64,000 nt of DNA from Escherichia phage vB_EcoM_SQ17. Positions within the stretch are counted from its first letter, which is position 1; each line of letters opens with the position of its first letter. Made by a program: the position numbers and the translations under genes. Under the pieces are notes generated by a model. That model saw only the letters and a program-made list of their open reading frames with translations. It searched no databases and was not told where the DNA came from. The stretch lies in sequence record MW882907; one strand, given 5' to 3'. Shown piece by piece: positions 2,341 to 31,258 of the stretch.

Positions 2341-3303
2341 TTATTTCCAAGTCAGTTCGCAGGTCAGTTGAAGAAGCATATACATAACATGTAATTCAAT
2401 ATTACTTGCTAATCCATGAAACTTATTGTTTTCGCCTGCAATTTCGTAAAGCGAAATAATACTTTTACCAGGTGCAACTTGGTCATAACATTCTGAAACT
2501 AATTTATCGATGAACCATGAATAATCTGCGGCATATTTTGGAGCTAATGCACGAAGTTGTTTGATATCTTTGTTCTTCATTGCTTCGATAACATCAGAGA
2601 CTGTGCCACGGTCATTAGTTACGATAGACAAAATACCCGCATCAAGAACACCTTTAGACGAGTACTGGTCTAATTGACCAATTGTACGACGAAAGTCCGG
2701 GAAGTTCTTTTTAACCAGAGCTGCAACAACTTTCATATCAGCGATTTCGATATTTTCATTCTTACAGATTTCAACCATACGATGAATCATTTTCTTCATC
2801 ATCGAGATTTTATCTTCTTCGGTTGGACGACCGAATTCGATAACTCGGCAACGACTACGTAATGGTTCAATAATTCCATCGATGTTGTTAGCAGTAATAA
2901 CAATAGAGCAGTTACTAGAGAATTCTTCCATAAACGTACGAAGGTGACGTTGTGATTCGGCGAGGCCACTACGGTCAAATTCATCAATAACAATAACTTT
3001 AGGCTTGCCTTCCATTGAGACTGAACGAGCGAATGCAGTTAACGGTCCCCGTACAAAATCAATCTTACAATCAGAACCGTTGACGAACATCATTTCAGCG
3101 TTGATATCATTACATAATGCTTTTGCTACGGTTGTTTTACCTGTACCAGGAGAAGGAGAGTGCAAAATAATATGAGGAAGTTTTCCTTTAGATACTAAAG
3201 ACTTGAATGTTTCATGGTCATACGCAGGCAGAATACATTCGTCAATGGAAGAAGGACGATATTTCTGTTCTAGAATGTGTTCTTTGGAATTGATAGTAAT
3301 CAT
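2341..3303 (-). CDS. 44: clamp loader ATPase subunit gp44
   Basis: 320-aa ORF with Walker [12 protein letters not shown], Walker B VIVIDEFD and sensor motifs typical of RFC-like clamp loaders. Confidence 0.9.
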
Positions 3304-3378
3304 GTAATTTTCCTCATTATCATTAAACTGGAGGATTTCTCCTCCATAATCGTATCACAATAAACGTAAAGCTTTGAC

Positions 3379-4065
3379 TTAGAAGTCGTGAGTAGAATCG
3401 GCTTCCATCGCAATAACATAACTTACTTGAGAGCTTTCAAACTTGGCTGCAACTTTATCACCAGCTCCCCACAACATTACTTTATAGTTACCTGGCTGGA
3501 TTTTCATATTAGCCATATTGATTACGAAGTTAAAATTGTTAGAACCGTCATAATCGGTAAGAGTCAAAGAATACTTAGGACGAGTTAGTCCAGAATCTTC
3601 AACTTTATTGTAACCATTGATAACAATTTTACCATCTTTATTTGTAATAGCAATTGTATCAATCTGAAGACCACGTGAAACTCGAAGCAATTGTTGAAGG
3701 TCTTCAGCTTTAATTTCAGTAATCACAGAAGCCACTGGGAATTGAATTGGCTTATTAGGAAAAACAATGGTGCTCTTGTCAGCGGCAGGCCAATAAACCG
3801 TGGAACGTGTATCTGCAATTTTAATATTGCCATCAGTGTGCATTGAAATTTCAGCATCATCAGACACTAGACTCAAAATGCTTAAGAAGCTATTCAAATC
3901 ATAAAGTGCTACGTCAAAATCAATTTCATCAGAGATATTTGCTTCCGCATAAGTGGTGCCATTAACTGCACGAGTCATAATAAATTTACCTTGACTCAGC
4001 AGAATGCCGGAGTTAATAGAGGCAAAGTTTTTCAGAATAGCGATAGTATCTTTAGACAGTTTCAT
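3379..4065 (-). CDS. 45: sliding clamp gp45
   Basis: ATG at 4065 gives MKLSKDTIAILKNFASINSGILLSQGKFIMTRAVNG... (228 aa); matches phage sliding-clamp sequence of RB69 type from memory; track start upstream is TTG. Confidence 0.9.
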   Translation of the reverse strand: MKLSKDTIAILKNFASINSGILLSQGKFIMTRAVNGTTYAEANISDEIDFDVALYDLNSFLSILSLVSDDAEISMHTDGNIKIADTRSTVYWPAADKSTIVFPNKPIQFPVASVITEIKAEDLQQLLRVSRGLQIDTIAITNKDGKIVINGYNKVEDSGLTRPKYSLTLTDYDGSNNFNFVINMANMKIQPGNYKVMLWGAGDKVAAKFESSQVSYVIAMEADSTHDF

Positions 4066-28285: not shown

Positions 28286-28867
28286 TTATAACAACCCTGT
28301 CAAATCATTCCAATGCTTCCGGCATAATGACACATATCTATCGGTGTCACCAATTTCAATTTGACTGCCATCTGTAATTGGAAGTCCGTCTTCCGTGACT
28401 CTAGCTACCATTGTGGCCTTTTTACCACAATGACAGACACCTTTAAGTTCAACAAGCTTATCAGCAATAGCCATTAATGCTTGAGAACCTTCAAATAGAT
28501 TACCTTTAAAATCTGTTCGTAGTCCATATGCCATTACCGGCACATTGTATACGTCAACAATACGACTAAGTTGATACACCTTTTCAGTAGTTAAGAACTG
28601 AGCTTCGTCAACAAATACACAATGAATATCCTTTTGTGCTGCAGCCCATTTATAGAATTCAAAGATATCCATGTCTTTTGTAATTATATTGGCGTCCTGA
28701 CGAATACCAATACGGGAGACTATTTCACCTTTTGAATCGCGAGTATCAATAGCCGGTTTAAGAACTAATACACCCATGCCACGTTCTTTATAGTTATGTG
28801 CGGCAGTAAGTAATGAAGCAGACTTACCAGCGTTCATAGCGGCATATGTAAAAATTAAACTAGCCAT
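28286..28867 (-). CDS. tk: thymidine kinase
   Basis: 193-aa ORF; P-loop YAAMNAGKSASLL, Walker B VFVDEAQF, C-terminal zinc ribbon CHCGKKA...CRKH. Confidence 0.9.
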   Translation of the reverse strand: MASLIFTYAAMNAGKSASLLTAAHNYKERGMGVLVLKPAIDTRDSKGEIVSRIGIRQDANIITKDMDIFEFYKWAAAQKDIHCVFVDEAQFLTTEKVYQLSRIVDVYNVPVMAYGLRTDFKGNLFEGSQALMAIADKLVELKGVCHCGKKATMVARVTEDGLPITDGSQIEIGDTDRYVSLCRKHWNDLTGLL

Positions 28868-29057: not shown

Positions 29058-29260
29058 AAGGAATTTATATAATCAATAAGTTCTTGTTCTTTATCGTCGA
29101 AATCTTTACACAGTTCTTCGTATTCGTCGGTATTAAAAGGACCGCATTCATCGCAAACTTTTTCCAATTCACTATTTTTATCCATAACTTCGTGAATAAG
29201 AGAAAATAGTCTGTCTTTTTGTTCTTTACTTAAACTCATAACCATGTAACCTTTAAGCAA
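29054..29260 (-). CDS. hypothetical protein
   Basis: 68-aa ORF, ATGA overlap with neighbour. Confidence 0.45.
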   Translation of the reverse strand: MLKGYMVMSLSKEQKDRLFSLIHEVMDKNSELEKVCDECGPFNTDEYEELCKDFDDKEQELIDYINSL

Positions 29261-29463
29261 TATTCTTCTACATGTTGTTTACGACCTTTCTTATCAATAA
29301 AGGTATATTCAACGAATGTTCCGATGTAGTCTTTATCTACATCATGTGGACTATTAATTGGGCATTTAGTACGGCAAATGCGTTCCCATTGACGAATAAT
29401 TACTGCCTTATTCTTTGGGTCATATGGATGTGGATAATGTATATTCATAATAATGGTTCCCAA
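29236..29463 (-). CDS. hypothetical protein
   Basis: 75-aa ORF with several Cys/His. Confidence 0.45.
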   Translation of the reverse strand: MGTIIMNIHYPHPYDPKNKAVIIRQWERICRTKCPINSPHDVDKDYIGTFVEYTFIDKKGRKQHVEEYCLKVTWL

Positions 29464-29912
29464 TCAACAATCACAATTTCTAGTTTAGTGGAATACGTAT
29501 CTAAAATCTCTTCGATGATATCCCAGTTTCCGCCACCGATACCTGCACCAATTCTTGGCATATAAATTACAGGCTTTGTTATCTTATTCTTTCCGAATTC
29601 ATTTAATTCTATTATACAATTCATTAAAGCAGAGTACTCAAAATTAGGTCCTGGCTCAAACTGTGTATAAAGATTAAAGCAATAAGCTTTATGTGTCTTA
29701 AAATATTTTTCATAAACCGAATAAGTCCCGAGTTTAGACTCGTCTCCGAATTCGGTTTGAAGTTTATCGGCTTCCAGAATTTTTGGATAAGCCTTTGCTA
29801 ATTGTCCTGCCACACCAGCGCCCATTGTATGAAAACAATTACACCCATGAGCGATATTATTACCTTTAGAAAACAGGGCGACAATATCGCCCTTGATATA
29901 GTTTTTAATCAC
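29445..29912 (-). CDS. macro-domain-like protein (putative ADP-ribose binding/processing)
   Basis: GDIVALFSKGNNIAHGCNC...MGAGVAGQL ... PRIGAGIGGG resembles macro-domain glycine-rich motifs; no ATG, probable GTG start overlapping upstream stop. Confidence 0.5.
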   Translation of the reverse strand: MIKNYIKGDIVALFSKGNNIAHGCNCFHTMGAGVAGQLAKAYPKILEADKLQTEFGDESKLGTYSVYEKYFKTHKAYCFNLYTQFEPGPNFEYSALMNCIIELNEFGKNKITKPVIYMPRIGAGIGGGNWDIIEEILDTYSTKLEIVIVDWEPLL

Positions 29913-30252
29913 TTGCTGCAAGTCCTCTAGTATAAGAGTCAACTAGGCGGTCCACCATAGAATTGCATGCTGCCTTATCTTTAGGTTCCGCCACCGAGCA
30001 TTCTAATATTTGCCATTTTTTATAGTATCTTTTAATTAAGGTAGACGCCTTGAACCTACTAGACGCCCCATCTTTTTCTCCGTCTTTATACGCATATAAC
30101 AATTTTTGTGAAAAATCTACTTTACACTCTTGACTTTTACCACAATAATCAGACGCTGTTCTGTTTGTATACTCCGTTACATCAGTATATGTAGTATTAG
30201 CAAGAGCGTTAAATGAAACCAAGCCAACTATTAAAGCCAACATTTTGGTCAT
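29905..30252 (-). CDS. secreted/periplasmic protein
   Basis: 115-aa ORF with signal peptide MTKMLALIVGLVSFNALA and four cysteines. Confidence 0.5.
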   Translation of the reverse strand: MTKMLALIVGLVSFNALANTTYTDVTEYTNRTASDYCGKSQECKVDFSQKLLYAYKDGEKDGASSRFKASTLIKRYYKKWQILECSVAEPKDKAACNSMVDRLVDSYTRGLAASD

Positions 30253-30791
30253 TCTTTTATTTCCAGTAGTTTGGTTGATTTAAGGTAATTAGCCTTTTCT
30301 AGGACTTCAGAAGCATATTTACTTCCAGCACTTGTCTTCCATCCCGCATTATATGAGGATATAGCTTTTCTTATATCCCCGTTATGTATATTTAACCAAT
30401 AAGAAAATTCGATATAAGCCCATCTGGCTGAATTAGACCGCTTAGATAGCATTTTCTTAATTTGGGCATCAGTCATATTATAACCAAGCTGGTTAATTCT
30501 TGCCCTCATTGTTGGTAGATAATTTTGGAACATTCCATACGCATGGTGACCTTTCTTATCTTTAAGATTAATACCGGCAGATGATTCCTGCCATAGTATT
30601 GCGGCCATTATGTATCCAAGTCCTTTCTTATGCATATTTTCATGCGTTTTAAATTTTCCATCCTTAGAAAACTGTTCCCCAAACTGATAAGCATAATTCA
30701 AGTTATCGAGTTGGACATTACTAAAAGTATGCTCGGAGCTATGTGCTGATAACGAAAGAGCAAATAGACCAGCGAGTAGTGCTTTTCTCAT
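30249..30791 (-). CDS. periplasmic lytic transglycosylase (SLT domain) protein
   Basis: 180-aa ORF; signal peptide MRKALLAGLFALSLSAHS; SLT motifs QESS...AYGMFQ and SSYNAGW. Confidence 0.6.
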   Translation of the reverse strand: MRKALLAGLFALSLSAHSSEHTFSNVQLDNLNYAYQFGEQFSKDGKFKTHENMHKKGLGYIMAAILWQESSAGINLKDKKGHHAYGMFQNYLPTMRARINQLGYNMTDAQIKKMLSKRSNSARWAYIEFSYWLNIHNGDIRKAISSYNAGWKTSAGSKYASEVLEKANYLKSTKLLEIKE

Positions 30792-30799
30792 GTTTACCT

Positions 30800-31258
30800 C
30801 TAGATTTTAATCACTGCTTTAGAAGCTTTTCCTGGTAGTCGTTTACTGTTAATAATAGCCATTCTGCATTGAAGAGTCTTCATTTTGAATGCTGGATTTT
30901 CGCGACAAACTGTAAGTCCTAACCAAAGATTTCCGTCAGTTATTTCTAAACGGCCTGGACGATATTCGACACCTTCGACAAAATCTTCGTCAACATCTGG
31001 ACGTGCCGGCATTGATAAAAATTCTGCAACTTCTTTAACATGATTTTTTACTTTACGAAATAATTCAAAAACGTAGTTCTCATCTATTTCTCTCTGGATA
31101 GCACGATCTAAGAGATGTTGAGAATACTTGATATGAAAGCCTGGTAGTCCAAGAGACTTTGCAGCATCTTTTATACCGGCATTTATTTTGCGGAACTCCG
31201 TTTCAAAGATTCGACGGAGTTTATTACGGCGGATAAAAACGTCAGAATTGATAGTCAT
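30800..31258 (-). CDS. regB: site-specific endoribonuclease RegB
   Basis: 152-aa ORF MTINSDVFIRRNKLRRIFETEFRKINAG... in the T4 regB position; recalled similarity to T4 RegB. Confidence 0.8.
   Translation of the reverse strand: MTINSDVFIRRNKLRRIFETEFRKINAGIKDAAKSLGLPGFHIKYSQHLLDRAIQREIDENYVFELFRKVKNHVKEVAEFLSMPARPDVDEDFVEGVEYRPGRLEITDGNLWLGLTVCRENPAFKMKTLQCRMAIINSKRLPGKASKAVIKI

What the first reader, a model, noticed from the sequence alone, without database searches (positions are those of the whole stretch)
29445..29942. Macro-domain-like ORF with non-ATG start inside the tk-regB block
The ORF encodes glycine-rich motifs NIAHGCNC...MGAGVAGQL and PRIGAGIGGG arranged like macro-domain ADP-ribose binding loops. 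It has no ATG: the frame opens with TTG straight after a stop, and the likely start is a GTG overlapping the upstream gene's stop. Macro domains can reverse ADP-ribosylation or degrade ADP-ribose-derived signals, so a phage copy is a plausible counter-defence factor.
Basis: partly seen in the sequence, partly recalled or inferred. Interest (0 to 1): 0.55.

Follow-up and report, generated by a model that had tools for sequence, protein, structure and literature searches.

The report
T4 Tk.4/AdfM macrodomain orthologue, GTG start

Summary

The real start is the GTG at 29912-29910 (155 aa). It overlaps the vs stop by 8 nt and sits exactly where T4, JS98 and other T-evens have ATG.

The gene is the syntenic orthologue (85% identity, no gaps) of T4 tk.4. 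T4 tk.4 has long been annotated "A1pp phosphatase". A 2025 preprint showed it is the one T4 gene required to resist DarTG2 and renamed it AdfM.

So the counter-defence reading is supported and the finding is already known.

Two refinements are mine. First, this family is not DarG-type. An invariant Gln84 replaces the catalytic Lys of DarG, TARG1 and PhiKZ AdfM, as in SCO6735/Bt_1257, but without their extended lysine-bearing loop. Second, RefSeq and some GenBank records of near-identical phages truncate the gene to an internal ATG (126 aa), which removes part of the active site.

Side observation: a conserved, partly covarying hairpin lies in codons 7-13.

The parts
29445..29912 (-). tk.4 / adfM coding sequence: 155 aa from the GTG start to the TGA stop at 29447-29445
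   Evidence: It is 85% identical over all 155 residues, without gaps, to T4 Tk.4. Pfam Macro is above its cut-off. The AF2 model has pLDDT 95.9. dN/dS is 0.067.
29910..29912 (-). GTG initiation codon
   Evidence: It is positionally homologous to the ATG of T4, G4498, JS98, NC-G, KMB42 and phiR1-RT. Three other Mosigvirus isolates carry the identical GTG. Metagenomic gene calls for the closest clusters are also 155 aa.
29923..29927 (-). Shine-Dalgarno-like GAGGA, 10 nt upstream of the GTG
   Evidence: Read directly from the sequence. GAGG(A/G) is conserved at the same place in T4, JS98 and NC-G.
29905..29912 (-). 8-nt overlap GTGATTAA between the tk.4 start and the end of vs (TAA stop at 29907-29905). 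This is a likely translational coupling site.
   Evidence: T4 has the equivalent ATGA overlap.
29814..29849 (-). Loop 1, the substrate/ribose-binding loop HGCNCFHTMGAG (H22-G33). It contains N25, which equals DarG N22 and SCO6735 N27.
   Evidence: Alignments. N25 is conserved in at least 90% and C26 and G33 in 100% of 118 homologues. Mutagenesis of the equivalent Asn is reported in DarG, SCO6735 and PhiKZ AdfM.
29661..29663 (-). Codon for Gln84, at the position of the catalytic Lys of TARG1 (K84), DarG (K80) and PhiKZ AdfM, and of Gln85 of SCO6735
   Evidence: Invariant in 118 homologues. Three concordant alignments place it there. SCO6735 Q85A is inactive.
29523..29558 (-). Loop 2, the phosphate-binding loop PRIGAGIGGGNW (P119-W130). 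G122 and G124 equal SCO6735 G126 and G128, and G124 equals DarG G119.
   Evidence: P119, I121, G122 and G124 are invariant.
29875..29893 (-). Conserved stem-loop AGGGCGAT-ATT-GTCGCCCT inside codons 7-13, followed by a U-rich tract. This is a side observation of unknown role.
29905..30252 (-). vs (valyl-tRNA synthetase modifier), the upstream neighbour in the same transcription direction
   Evidence: The ORF is.
29236..29448 (-). tk.3 (DUF7202), the downstream neighbour. Its ATG overlaps the tk.4 TGA stop as ATGA.

Best explanation
The ORF is the Mosigvirus orthologue of phage T4 gene tk.4 (adfM, 'anti-DarT factor Macrodomain'). It is a stand-alone 155-aa macrodomain of the ALC1/TARG1/DarG-like class, translated from a GTG. 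Translation is probably coupled to the upstream gene vs through an 8-nt overlap. Its most likely job is counter-defence. When the host toxin DarT2 ADP-ribosylates thymidines in single-stranded phage DNA, the protein binds the ADP-ribose in its two glycine-rich loops and hydrolyses the thymine-ribose bond, restoring replicable DNA. It acts as an orphan, phage-encoded functional analogue of the antitoxin DarG. Chemically it should resemble SCO6735 rather than DarG. It has no catalytic lysine. An invariant Gln84, held by Asn25, would position the distal ribose for attack by an activated water molecule. Shown here: the macro fold, the class, orthology with T4 tk.4, the start codon by comparison, and active-site residue identities. 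Taken from the literature: the T4 knockout phenotype and the enzymology of relatives. Inferred: that this orthologue does the same, and that it uses the Gln-type mechanism.

For: Orthology: 85% identity over 155/155 residues to T4 Tk.4, with the same gene order tk, tk.1-3, tk.4, vs, vs.1, regB.

Function of the orthologue: tk.4 was the single significant T4 HIDEN-SEQ hit on a DarTG2 host, and a clean knockout sensitised T4 (bioRxiv 10.1101/2025.11.20.689424).

Enzymology of relatives: ALC1-like macrodomains generally reverse DarT thymidine-ADPr. This is reported for SCO6735, DarG and TARG1 (PMC9411070; PMC5179494) and for PhiKZ AdfM (PMC13309987).

Active site: Q84, G122 and G124 are invariant and N25 and H22 are conserved in at least 90% of 118 homologues. 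They align with SCO6735 Q85, G126, G128, N27 and H24, all tested by mutagenesis, and with DarG K80, G119 and N22.

Selection: dN/dS is 0.067.
Against: No experiment exists on this phage's protein. The T4 evidence is genetic only and comes from a preprint, and no in vitro de-ADP-ribosylation by any Tk.4-type protein was found in the searched literature. The family lacks the DarG/TARG1 catalytic Lys (Gln84 instead). It also lacks the features proposed to make SCO6735 efficient on DNA: K34 is Ala32, and the mobile loop is about 5 residues shorter and lacks K89 and K93. The protein is mildly acidic (pI 5.6), whereas SCO6735, Bt_1257, TARG1 and TaqDarG have pI 8.9-9.9. However, the active PhiKZ AdfM is also acidic, at pI 5.05. 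The Gln-type mechanism of SCO6735 is itself a model based on MD simulation and mutagenesis. Use of the GTG start is inferred by comparison and not mapped experimentally. The 10-nt spacer after the SD is on the long side.
Confidence: 0.75

Rival explanations
1. A metabolic 'phosphatase' or deacetylase. The protein would clear free ADP-ribose-1''-phosphate (a by-product of 2'-phosphotransferase reactions in RNA repair or splicing) or O-acetyl-ADP-ribose. This is what the historic annotations imply ('A1pp phosphatase', 'O-acetyl-ADP-ribose deacetylase').
Against: Those names were transferred from the domain family and not tested. At position 84 Poa1p appears to have Ser, not the family's invariant Gln (alignment). 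The only phenotype reported for the orthologue is loss of DarTG2 resistance. Small-molecule activities are common side activities of macrodomains (established knowledge).
Confidence: 0.08
2. An eraser of protein or RNA ADP-ribosylation. It would either tune the phage's own Alt/ModA/ModB marks or reverse host ADP-ribosyltransferase defences other than DarT2.
For: TARG1 and SCO6735 also remove protein-linked mono-ADP-ribose. T-even phages encode three ADP-ribosyltransferases (established knowledge).
Against: HIDEN-SEQ found tk.4 depleted specifically on DarTG2. T-even phages remain sensitive to the mRNA ADP-ribosyltransferase system CmdTAC despite carrying tk.4 (PMC11618068 abstract). This activity may be real as a secondary one but is unlikely to be the selected role.
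Confidence: 0.08
3. Non-catalytic protection. The protein would neutralise DarT2 by binding the toxin, or by shielding or binding ADP-ribosylated DNA, without hydrolysis.
For: The catalytic Lys is absent. Catalytically dead SCO6735 Q85A still inhibits DarT by interaction.
Against: Q84, N25 and both Gly loops are invariant or nearly so across 118 homologues down to about 36% identity, which is the pattern expected of an enzyme. The Gln-type relative SCO6735 is a fast hydrolase. In T. aquaticus, the DarG macrodomain alone with K80A did not inhibit DarT.
Confidence: 0.05
4. A degrader or sponge of ADP-ribose-derived immune signals, such as the Thoeris cyclic-ADPR isomers.
Confidence: 0.03
5. Not a functional gene: an untranslated or decaying ORF that lost its ATG.
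For: It has a non-ATG start. Some pipelines could only call a truncated 126-aa product.
Against: dN/dS is 0.067. The full length is conserved with no frameshift or stop. The GTG is identical in four isolates. GTG starts occur independently at the same codon in rV5-like and other homologues. The SD and the overlap with vs are preserved.
Confidence: 0.01

Closest known systems
Phage T4 Tk.4 = AdfM (NP_049723; 'phosphatase, contains A1pp motif'; anti-DarT factor Macrodomain, bioRxiv 10.1101/2025.11.20.689424)
   Same: It has the same length (155 aa), 85% identity without gaps, the same neighbours (tk.3 downstream, vs upstream) and the same active-site residues, including Q84.
   Different: The start codon is GTG here and ATG in T4. 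The overlap with vs is 8 nt (GTGATTAA) here and 4 nt (ATGA) in T4. The phenotype was tested only in T4.
SCO6735 (Streptomyces coelicolor, PDB 5E3B) and Bt_1257 (PDB 2FG1/2AFC): the Gln-type ALC1-like macrodomains
   Different: The window family lacks the mobile loop that is about 5-6 residues longer and carries K89 and K93. It has Ala32 in place of K34. It is acidic rather than strongly basic, and it is encoded by a phage rather than a chromosome.
DarG antitoxin macrodomain (T. aquaticus 5M31/5M3E, M. tuberculosis 5M3I) and the DarG-type phage protein PhiKZ gp104, also named AdfM
   Different: DarG and PhiKZ gp104 have the FPTK catalytic Lys, and the window family has YTQF. DarG has a C-terminal DarT-binding domain and sits beside darT. 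The NCBIfam DarG score is 30.8 bits against a cut-off of 250. PhiKZ gp104 matches Mtb DarG at E 9e-25, whereas the window protein matches at only about 6e-3.
Human TARG1 / OARD1 (PDB 4J5S)
   Same: It is the top Foldseek hit (E 3.4e-10). The loop after strand 5 has the same length, and the profile alignment is gap-free there. TARG1 also reverses DarT DNA modification.
   Different: The TARG1 catalytic dyad K84/D125 corresponds to Q84/G126 here.

Membership tests
Macro domain superfamily (Pfam PF01661) | Profile match above the curated gathering score | tested here: met
   28.4 bits against a cut-off of 22, E 1.7e-6, covering profile positions 2-117 of 118.
Macro domain superfamily (Pfam PF01661) | Alpha/beta/alpha fold with a six-stranded mixed sheet and five helices | tested here: met
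Macro domain superfamily (Pfam PF01661) | Two glycine-rich ADP-ribose/phosphate-binding loops | tested here: met
   HGCNCFHTMGAG and PRIGAGIGGGNW align with the loops of ADPr-bound relatives. G31, G33, G122 and G124 are invariant or nearly so. Actual ligand binding was not tested.
ALC1/TARG1/DarG-like class of macrodomain hydrolases | Closest sequence and structure relatives all belong to this class, separated from the MacroD, PARG and viral Mac1 types | tested here: met
T4 Tk.4 / AdfM orthologous group | Full-length high identity and conserved synteny between vs and tk.3 | tested here: met
   85% identity over 155/155 residues, with identical gene order.
T4 Tk.4 / AdfM orthologous group | Required for phage growth on a DarTG2-expressing host | not testable with these tools
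   This has been shown only for T4.
DarG antitoxin (NCBIfam NF048014, PADLOC DarG) | Equivalog-level profile score over the full two-domain protein | tested here: not met
   30.8 bits against a cut-off of 250. Only model positions 4-146 of 338 are matched. The PADLOC match covers 4-145 of 329.
DarG antitoxin (NCBIfam NF048014, PADLOC DarG) | Catalytic lysine (Taq/Mtb K80, motif FPTK) | tested here: not met
   Gln84 occupies that column in three independent alignments and is invariant in the family.
DarG antitoxin (NCBIfam NF048014, PADLOC DarG) | Encoded next to a darT toxin gene | tested here: not met
   The neighbours are vs and tk.3.
SCO6735/Bt_1257 subclass (Gln-type ALC1-like) | Gln at the catalytic-Lys position, held by the conserved Asn | tested here: met
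   Q84 and N25 align with Q85 and N27.
SCO6735/Bt_1257 subclass (Gln-type ALC1-like) | Mobile loop extended by about 5 residues and carrying DNA-contacting lysines (K89, K93), plus K34 | tested here: not met
   Bt_1257 shows a 6-residue insertion relative to the family profile. The window loop Q84-Y93 spans 9 positions against 14 in SCO6735. Ala32 replaces K34.
Poa1p-type ADP-ribose-1''-phosphate phosphatase | Phosphatase activity on Appr-1''-p, with the residues probed by PDB mutants H23, S30 and F152 | tested here: inconclusive
   H23 maps to H22 and S30 to T29 in the alignment. F152 was not mapped. The activity is not testable here, and the Poa1p structure paper is not in the library.

The most novel reading that the evidence does not exclude
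Tk.4-type AdfM proteins would be a third catalytic design among enzymes that reverse DNA ADP-ribosylation. They have Gln instead of Lys, like SCO6735, but a short TARG1-length loop, no DNA-clamping lysines and an acidic surface. This would make them mechanistically distinct both from DarG and PhiKZ AdfM and from SCO6735, and possibly different in substrate range. In addition, expression in several phage lineages may be controlled by a conserved, covarying hairpin placed just after the overlapping start codon. That hairpin could be a re-initiation aid or an attenuator.
Probability: 0.3. Interest if true: 0.45.

Novelty: already known. Interest (0 to 1): 0.2.

Why it matters
As a discovery it adds little, because the gene, its fold and its counter-defence role are already in the record for T4. 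It matters in three practical ways.

1. RefSeq and several GenBank records of near-identical Mosigvirus phages annotate a 126-aa fragment that lacks strands 1-2 and the catalytic Asn. Automated anti-defence catalogues may therefore miss or mis-model the gene.

2. The name AdfM now covers two different macrodomain lineages: Lys-type in PhiKZ and Gln-type in T-even phages. Biochemistry done on one should not be assumed for the other.

3. The invariant Gln84 gives a direct, cheap test (Q84A and Q84K mutants) of whether the water-activation mechanism proposed for SCO6735 is general.

Tried and rejected
TTG at 29942 as the start: rejected. The ten extra codons lie inside the vs coding region. In T4 and JS98 an in-frame stop directly precedes the conserved Met-Ile N-terminus, and strand 1 of the model begins at residue 2.

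TTG at 29921: rejected. It is only 1 nt after the GAGGA.

Internal ATG at 29825, as used in NC_055749 and OR062945: rejected. It removes the conserved residues 1-29, including H22 and N25, and has no SD upstream.

RNA fold of the start region: no unusual stability (z 0.30).

Single-sequence hhalign to PhiKZ gp104: it gave a gapped, low-confidence alignment around Q84. This was superseded by the profile-profile run.

Rfam scan of 29300-30400: only sub-threshold noise.

Promoter-like sites: fewer than in shuffled sequence (8 against 12.3), so uninformative.

Literature: no biochemical study of any Tk.4-type protein was found, and the Poa1p structure paper is not held in the library.

Overall charge as an argument against DNA binding: dropped, because the active PhiKZ AdfM is equally acidic.

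Full report
**1. What is there**

The window carries a minus-strand ORF at 29445..29942. It is 165 aa when counted from a TTG that directly follows an in-frame TAG.

The surrounding genes, all on the minus strand, are thymidine kinase (28286..28867), three small ORFs, this ORF, vs (29905..30252), an SLT-like vs.1 (30249..30791) and RegB (30800..31258; Pfam REGB_T4 E 8.8e-69). This is the tk-regB block of T-even phages.

The DNA is 98.6% identical to Escherichia phage SF and many other Mosigvirus genomes. 650 phage records match by megablast.

**2. Is it a real gene, and where does it start?**

- **Selection.** dN/dS against the T4 orthologue is 0.067 (dS 1.25), which is strong purifying selection.
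- **Position of the GTG.** The GTG at 29912-29910 gives a 155-aa product. In T4, G4498, JS98, NC-G, KMB42 and phiR1-RT the same codon position is ATG, followed by the same Ile and the same Y-I-K-G-D-I-V strand.
- **No extension possible in relatives.** In T4 and JS98 an in-frame stop (TAG, TAA) lies immediately before that ATG, so no N-terminal extension is possible there.
- **Fixed in the lineage.** Three other Mosigvirus isolates have the identical GTG context. Gene calls for the nearest metagenomic clusters are 155 aa.
- **Ribosome-binding context.** A GAGGA lies 10 nt upstream. The GTG overlaps the vs stop within GTGATTAA, where T4 has ATGA.
- **Downstream overlap.** The tk.4 stop overlaps the tk.3 start as ATGA.

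Public annotation is inconsistent. KP869101 uses the 468-nt form. RefSeq NC_055749 and OR062945 use a 381-nt form that starts at the internal ATG at 29825. That shorter form deletes strands 1-2 and the conserved His22 and Asn25.

**3. Fold and class**

- Pfam Macro is above its gathering score (28.4 against 22 bits).
- With an alignment of 118 homologues, AlphaFold2 gives pLDDT 95.9 and pTM 0.91, with six strands and five helices.
- Foldseek gives the same picture.
- The family profile against PDB sequences gives E 1.9e-17 (Bt_1257), 6.5e-17 (TARG1), 3e-14 (SCO6735), 9e-14 (Poa1p) and 3e-13 and 9e-11 (DarG).
- The only hits in PADLOC and NCBIfam are the DarG models. They cover the macro half only and fall far below the equivalog cut-off (30.8 against 250 bits).

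The protein is therefore a stand-alone macrodomain of the ALC1/TARG1/DarG-like hydrolase class.

**4. Identity with a known gene**

The 155-aa protein is 85% identical, without gaps, to T4 Tk.4. In the T4 reference, Tk.4 sits in the same position and is annotated 'phosphatase; contains A1pp phosphatase motif'. PHROG 335 carries the same label.

A 2025 preprint used transposon mutagenesis of T4 (HIDEN-SEQ). It found tk.4 as the single significant hit on a DarTG2-expressing host, showed that a clean knockout sensitises T4 to DarTG2, and renamed the gene adfM.

Independently, a 2026 Cell Reports paper gave the same name to PhiKZ gp104. It showed in vitro that gp104 removes DarT2-placed ADP-ribose from DNA, and that N23A weakens the activity.

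**5. Mechanism: what the sequence adds**

DarG and TARG1 depend on a catalytic lysine (K80 and K84). K80A inactivates T. aquaticus DarG, and N22A is the next most damaging mutant. PhiKZ gp104 is a true DarG-type protein: it matches Mtb DarG at E 9e-25 and has the FPTK motif.

The window protein is different. Three concordant alignments place Gln84 in the lysine column: the HMMER profile against TARG1 and Bt_1257, MAFFT with all references, and the profile-profile comparison against a DarG-type alignment (probability 98.7%, E 1.8e-16). Gln84 is invariant in all 118 homologues, and Asn25 is present in at least 90% of them.

This is the configuration of SCO6735 and Bt_1257. In SCO6735, Gln85 replaces the lysine and Q85A is dead. 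N27S is nearly dead, and G128E loses most of its activity. The authors propose that Gln positions the distal ribose while a backbone-held water initiates cleavage. SCO6735 reverses DarT thymidine-ADPr faster than DarG or TARG1.

Mapping the SCO6735 sequence onto the window protein gives:

| SCO6735 residue | Window residue | Status |
|---|---|---|
| H24 | H22 | retained |
| N27 | N25 | retained |
| Q85 | Q84 | retained |
| G126 | G122 | retained |
| G128 | G124 | retained |
| K34 | A32 | lost |
| K89, K93 (mobile loop) | none | loop about 5 residues shorter |

Bt_1257 shows a 6-residue insertion relative to the family profile at that loop, whereas TARG1 aligns there without a gap. TARG1 D125 corresponds to G126.

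The Tk.4 family is therefore Gln-type with a short loop. My best reading is enzymatic reversal of DarT2 marks on phage ssDNA by an SCO6735-like, lysine-independent mechanism. The first part rests on T4 genetics. The second part is inference.

**6. Rivals**

- **Metabolic Appr-1''-p phosphatase or OAADPr deacetylase.** This is the historic label. It is supported only by similarity to Poa1p.
- **Eraser of protein or RNA ADP-ribosylation.** This is possible as a secondary activity, since SCO6735 and TARG1 do it. But tk.4 was depleted specifically on DarTG2, and T-evens remain sensitive to CmdTAC.
- **Non-catalytic toxin binding.** This is conceivable, since SCO6735 Q85A still inhibits DarT. But invariant active-site residues argue for catalysis.
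- **Signal degradation or sponge.** There is no support for this.
- **Non-gene.** This is excluded by selection and conservation.

**7. Side observation: a hairpin in codons 7-13**

The terminator scan flagged AGGGCGAT-ATT-GTCGCCCT followed by GTTTTCT at 29893..29875. That is positions +20 to +38 of the coding sequence.

I compared 48 distinct homologue 5' ends: the window plus 47 from IMG/VR. Of these, 17 carry a hairpin at these codons that is far more stable than synonymous-codon resamplings of the same peptide. The values are -11.8 to -13.4 kcal/mol against a null mean of about -4.4, with z of -3.5 to -4.6.

The stem differs between clades in ways that keep pairing:

- G:C becomes A:U through synonymous Lys and Leu codon changes.
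- U.G becomes C:G through GAT to GAC.
- C:G becomes A:U through GGC to GGA combined with Ala to Ser.

Clades with other residues at positions 12-13 have no hairpin.

On all 35 in-register sequences the named structure beats both the shuffled and the slid controls. It pairs in 72.1% of cells against 66.8% shuffled (0/500 shuffles as high). Its covariation score is 0.219 against 0.158 shuffled and 0.137 or less slid. That tool warns that related sequences can pass the shuffle control without any structure.

There is no Rfam match. The function is unknown. Because the hairpin lies just beyond an initiating ribosome's footprint and is followed by a U-tract, it could be a re-initiation aid at the overlapping start, an attenuator, or a 3' stabiliser of vs mRNA.

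**8. Verdict**

The feature is an orthologue of an already named and phenotyped gene, so novelty is 'already known' and interest is low.

The useful residue is fourfold: the start-codon correction for database records, the Gln-for-Lys active site that separates T-even AdfM from PhiKZ AdfM and DarG, the short-loop difference from SCO6735, and the 5' hairpin.

Noticed in passing
window 29875-29893 (minus strand), plus loci L016-L054: A stable stem-loop followed by a U-rich tail lies inside codons 7-13 of tk.4. It is conserved in several T-even and rV5-like clades with pairing-preserving substitutions, and is far more stable than synonymous-codon nulls (z about -4). Other clades lack it. There is no Rfam family for it and its role is unknown.
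   Followed up: partly
L001 2646-3026 (OR062945.1) and L002 1646-2026 (RefSeq NC_055749.1), equivalent to window 29445-29825: Records of near-identical phages annotate the gene from an internal ATG (381 nt, 126 aa). This leaves about 79 nt unannotated after vs and removes strands 1-2, His22 and Asn25. KP869101 uses the full 468-nt GTG form.
   Followed up: yes
L012 (rV5_ev147, start at 301), L054 and L032: GTG is also the start codon at the same homologous position in rV5-like (Vequintavirus) homologues, where GAGGAG again lies 10 nt upstream, and in one other T-even-like lineage. A non-ATG start therefore arose more than once in this family.
   Followed up: partly
Literature, compared with the window protein: Two groups gave the name AdfM independently to two different macrodomain lineages. 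PhiKZ gp104 is DarG-type with an FPTK lysine and has been tested biochemically. T4 Tk.4 is Gln-type and has genetic evidence only.
   Followed up: yes
window 30249-30791 (vs.1 orthologue); L001 3450-3992; L003 1950-2492: vs.1 gives only a sub-threshold SLT transglycosylase hit (18.8 against 21.3 bits). Public records label it inconsistently as 'leucine aminopeptidase, subunit E, domain 1', 'endoribonuclease' or hypothetical.
   Followed up: no
window 29905-30252 (vs): The upstream, overlapping gene vs is the orthologue of the T4 gene that the HIDEN-SEQ preprint reports as the most strongly depleted in minimal medium. It is the gene coupled to tk.4 by the 8-nt overlap.
   Followed up: no
L004 (T4 RefSeq NC_000866) 853-1035 and 3214-3426: There are annotation slips in the T4 reference. 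tk.3 is labelled 'Tk.2 conserved hypothetical protein'. The 60-aa mobD.4 is labelled 'molybdopterin-guanine dinucleotide biosynthesis protein MobD', apparently from the gene name alone.
   Followed up: no
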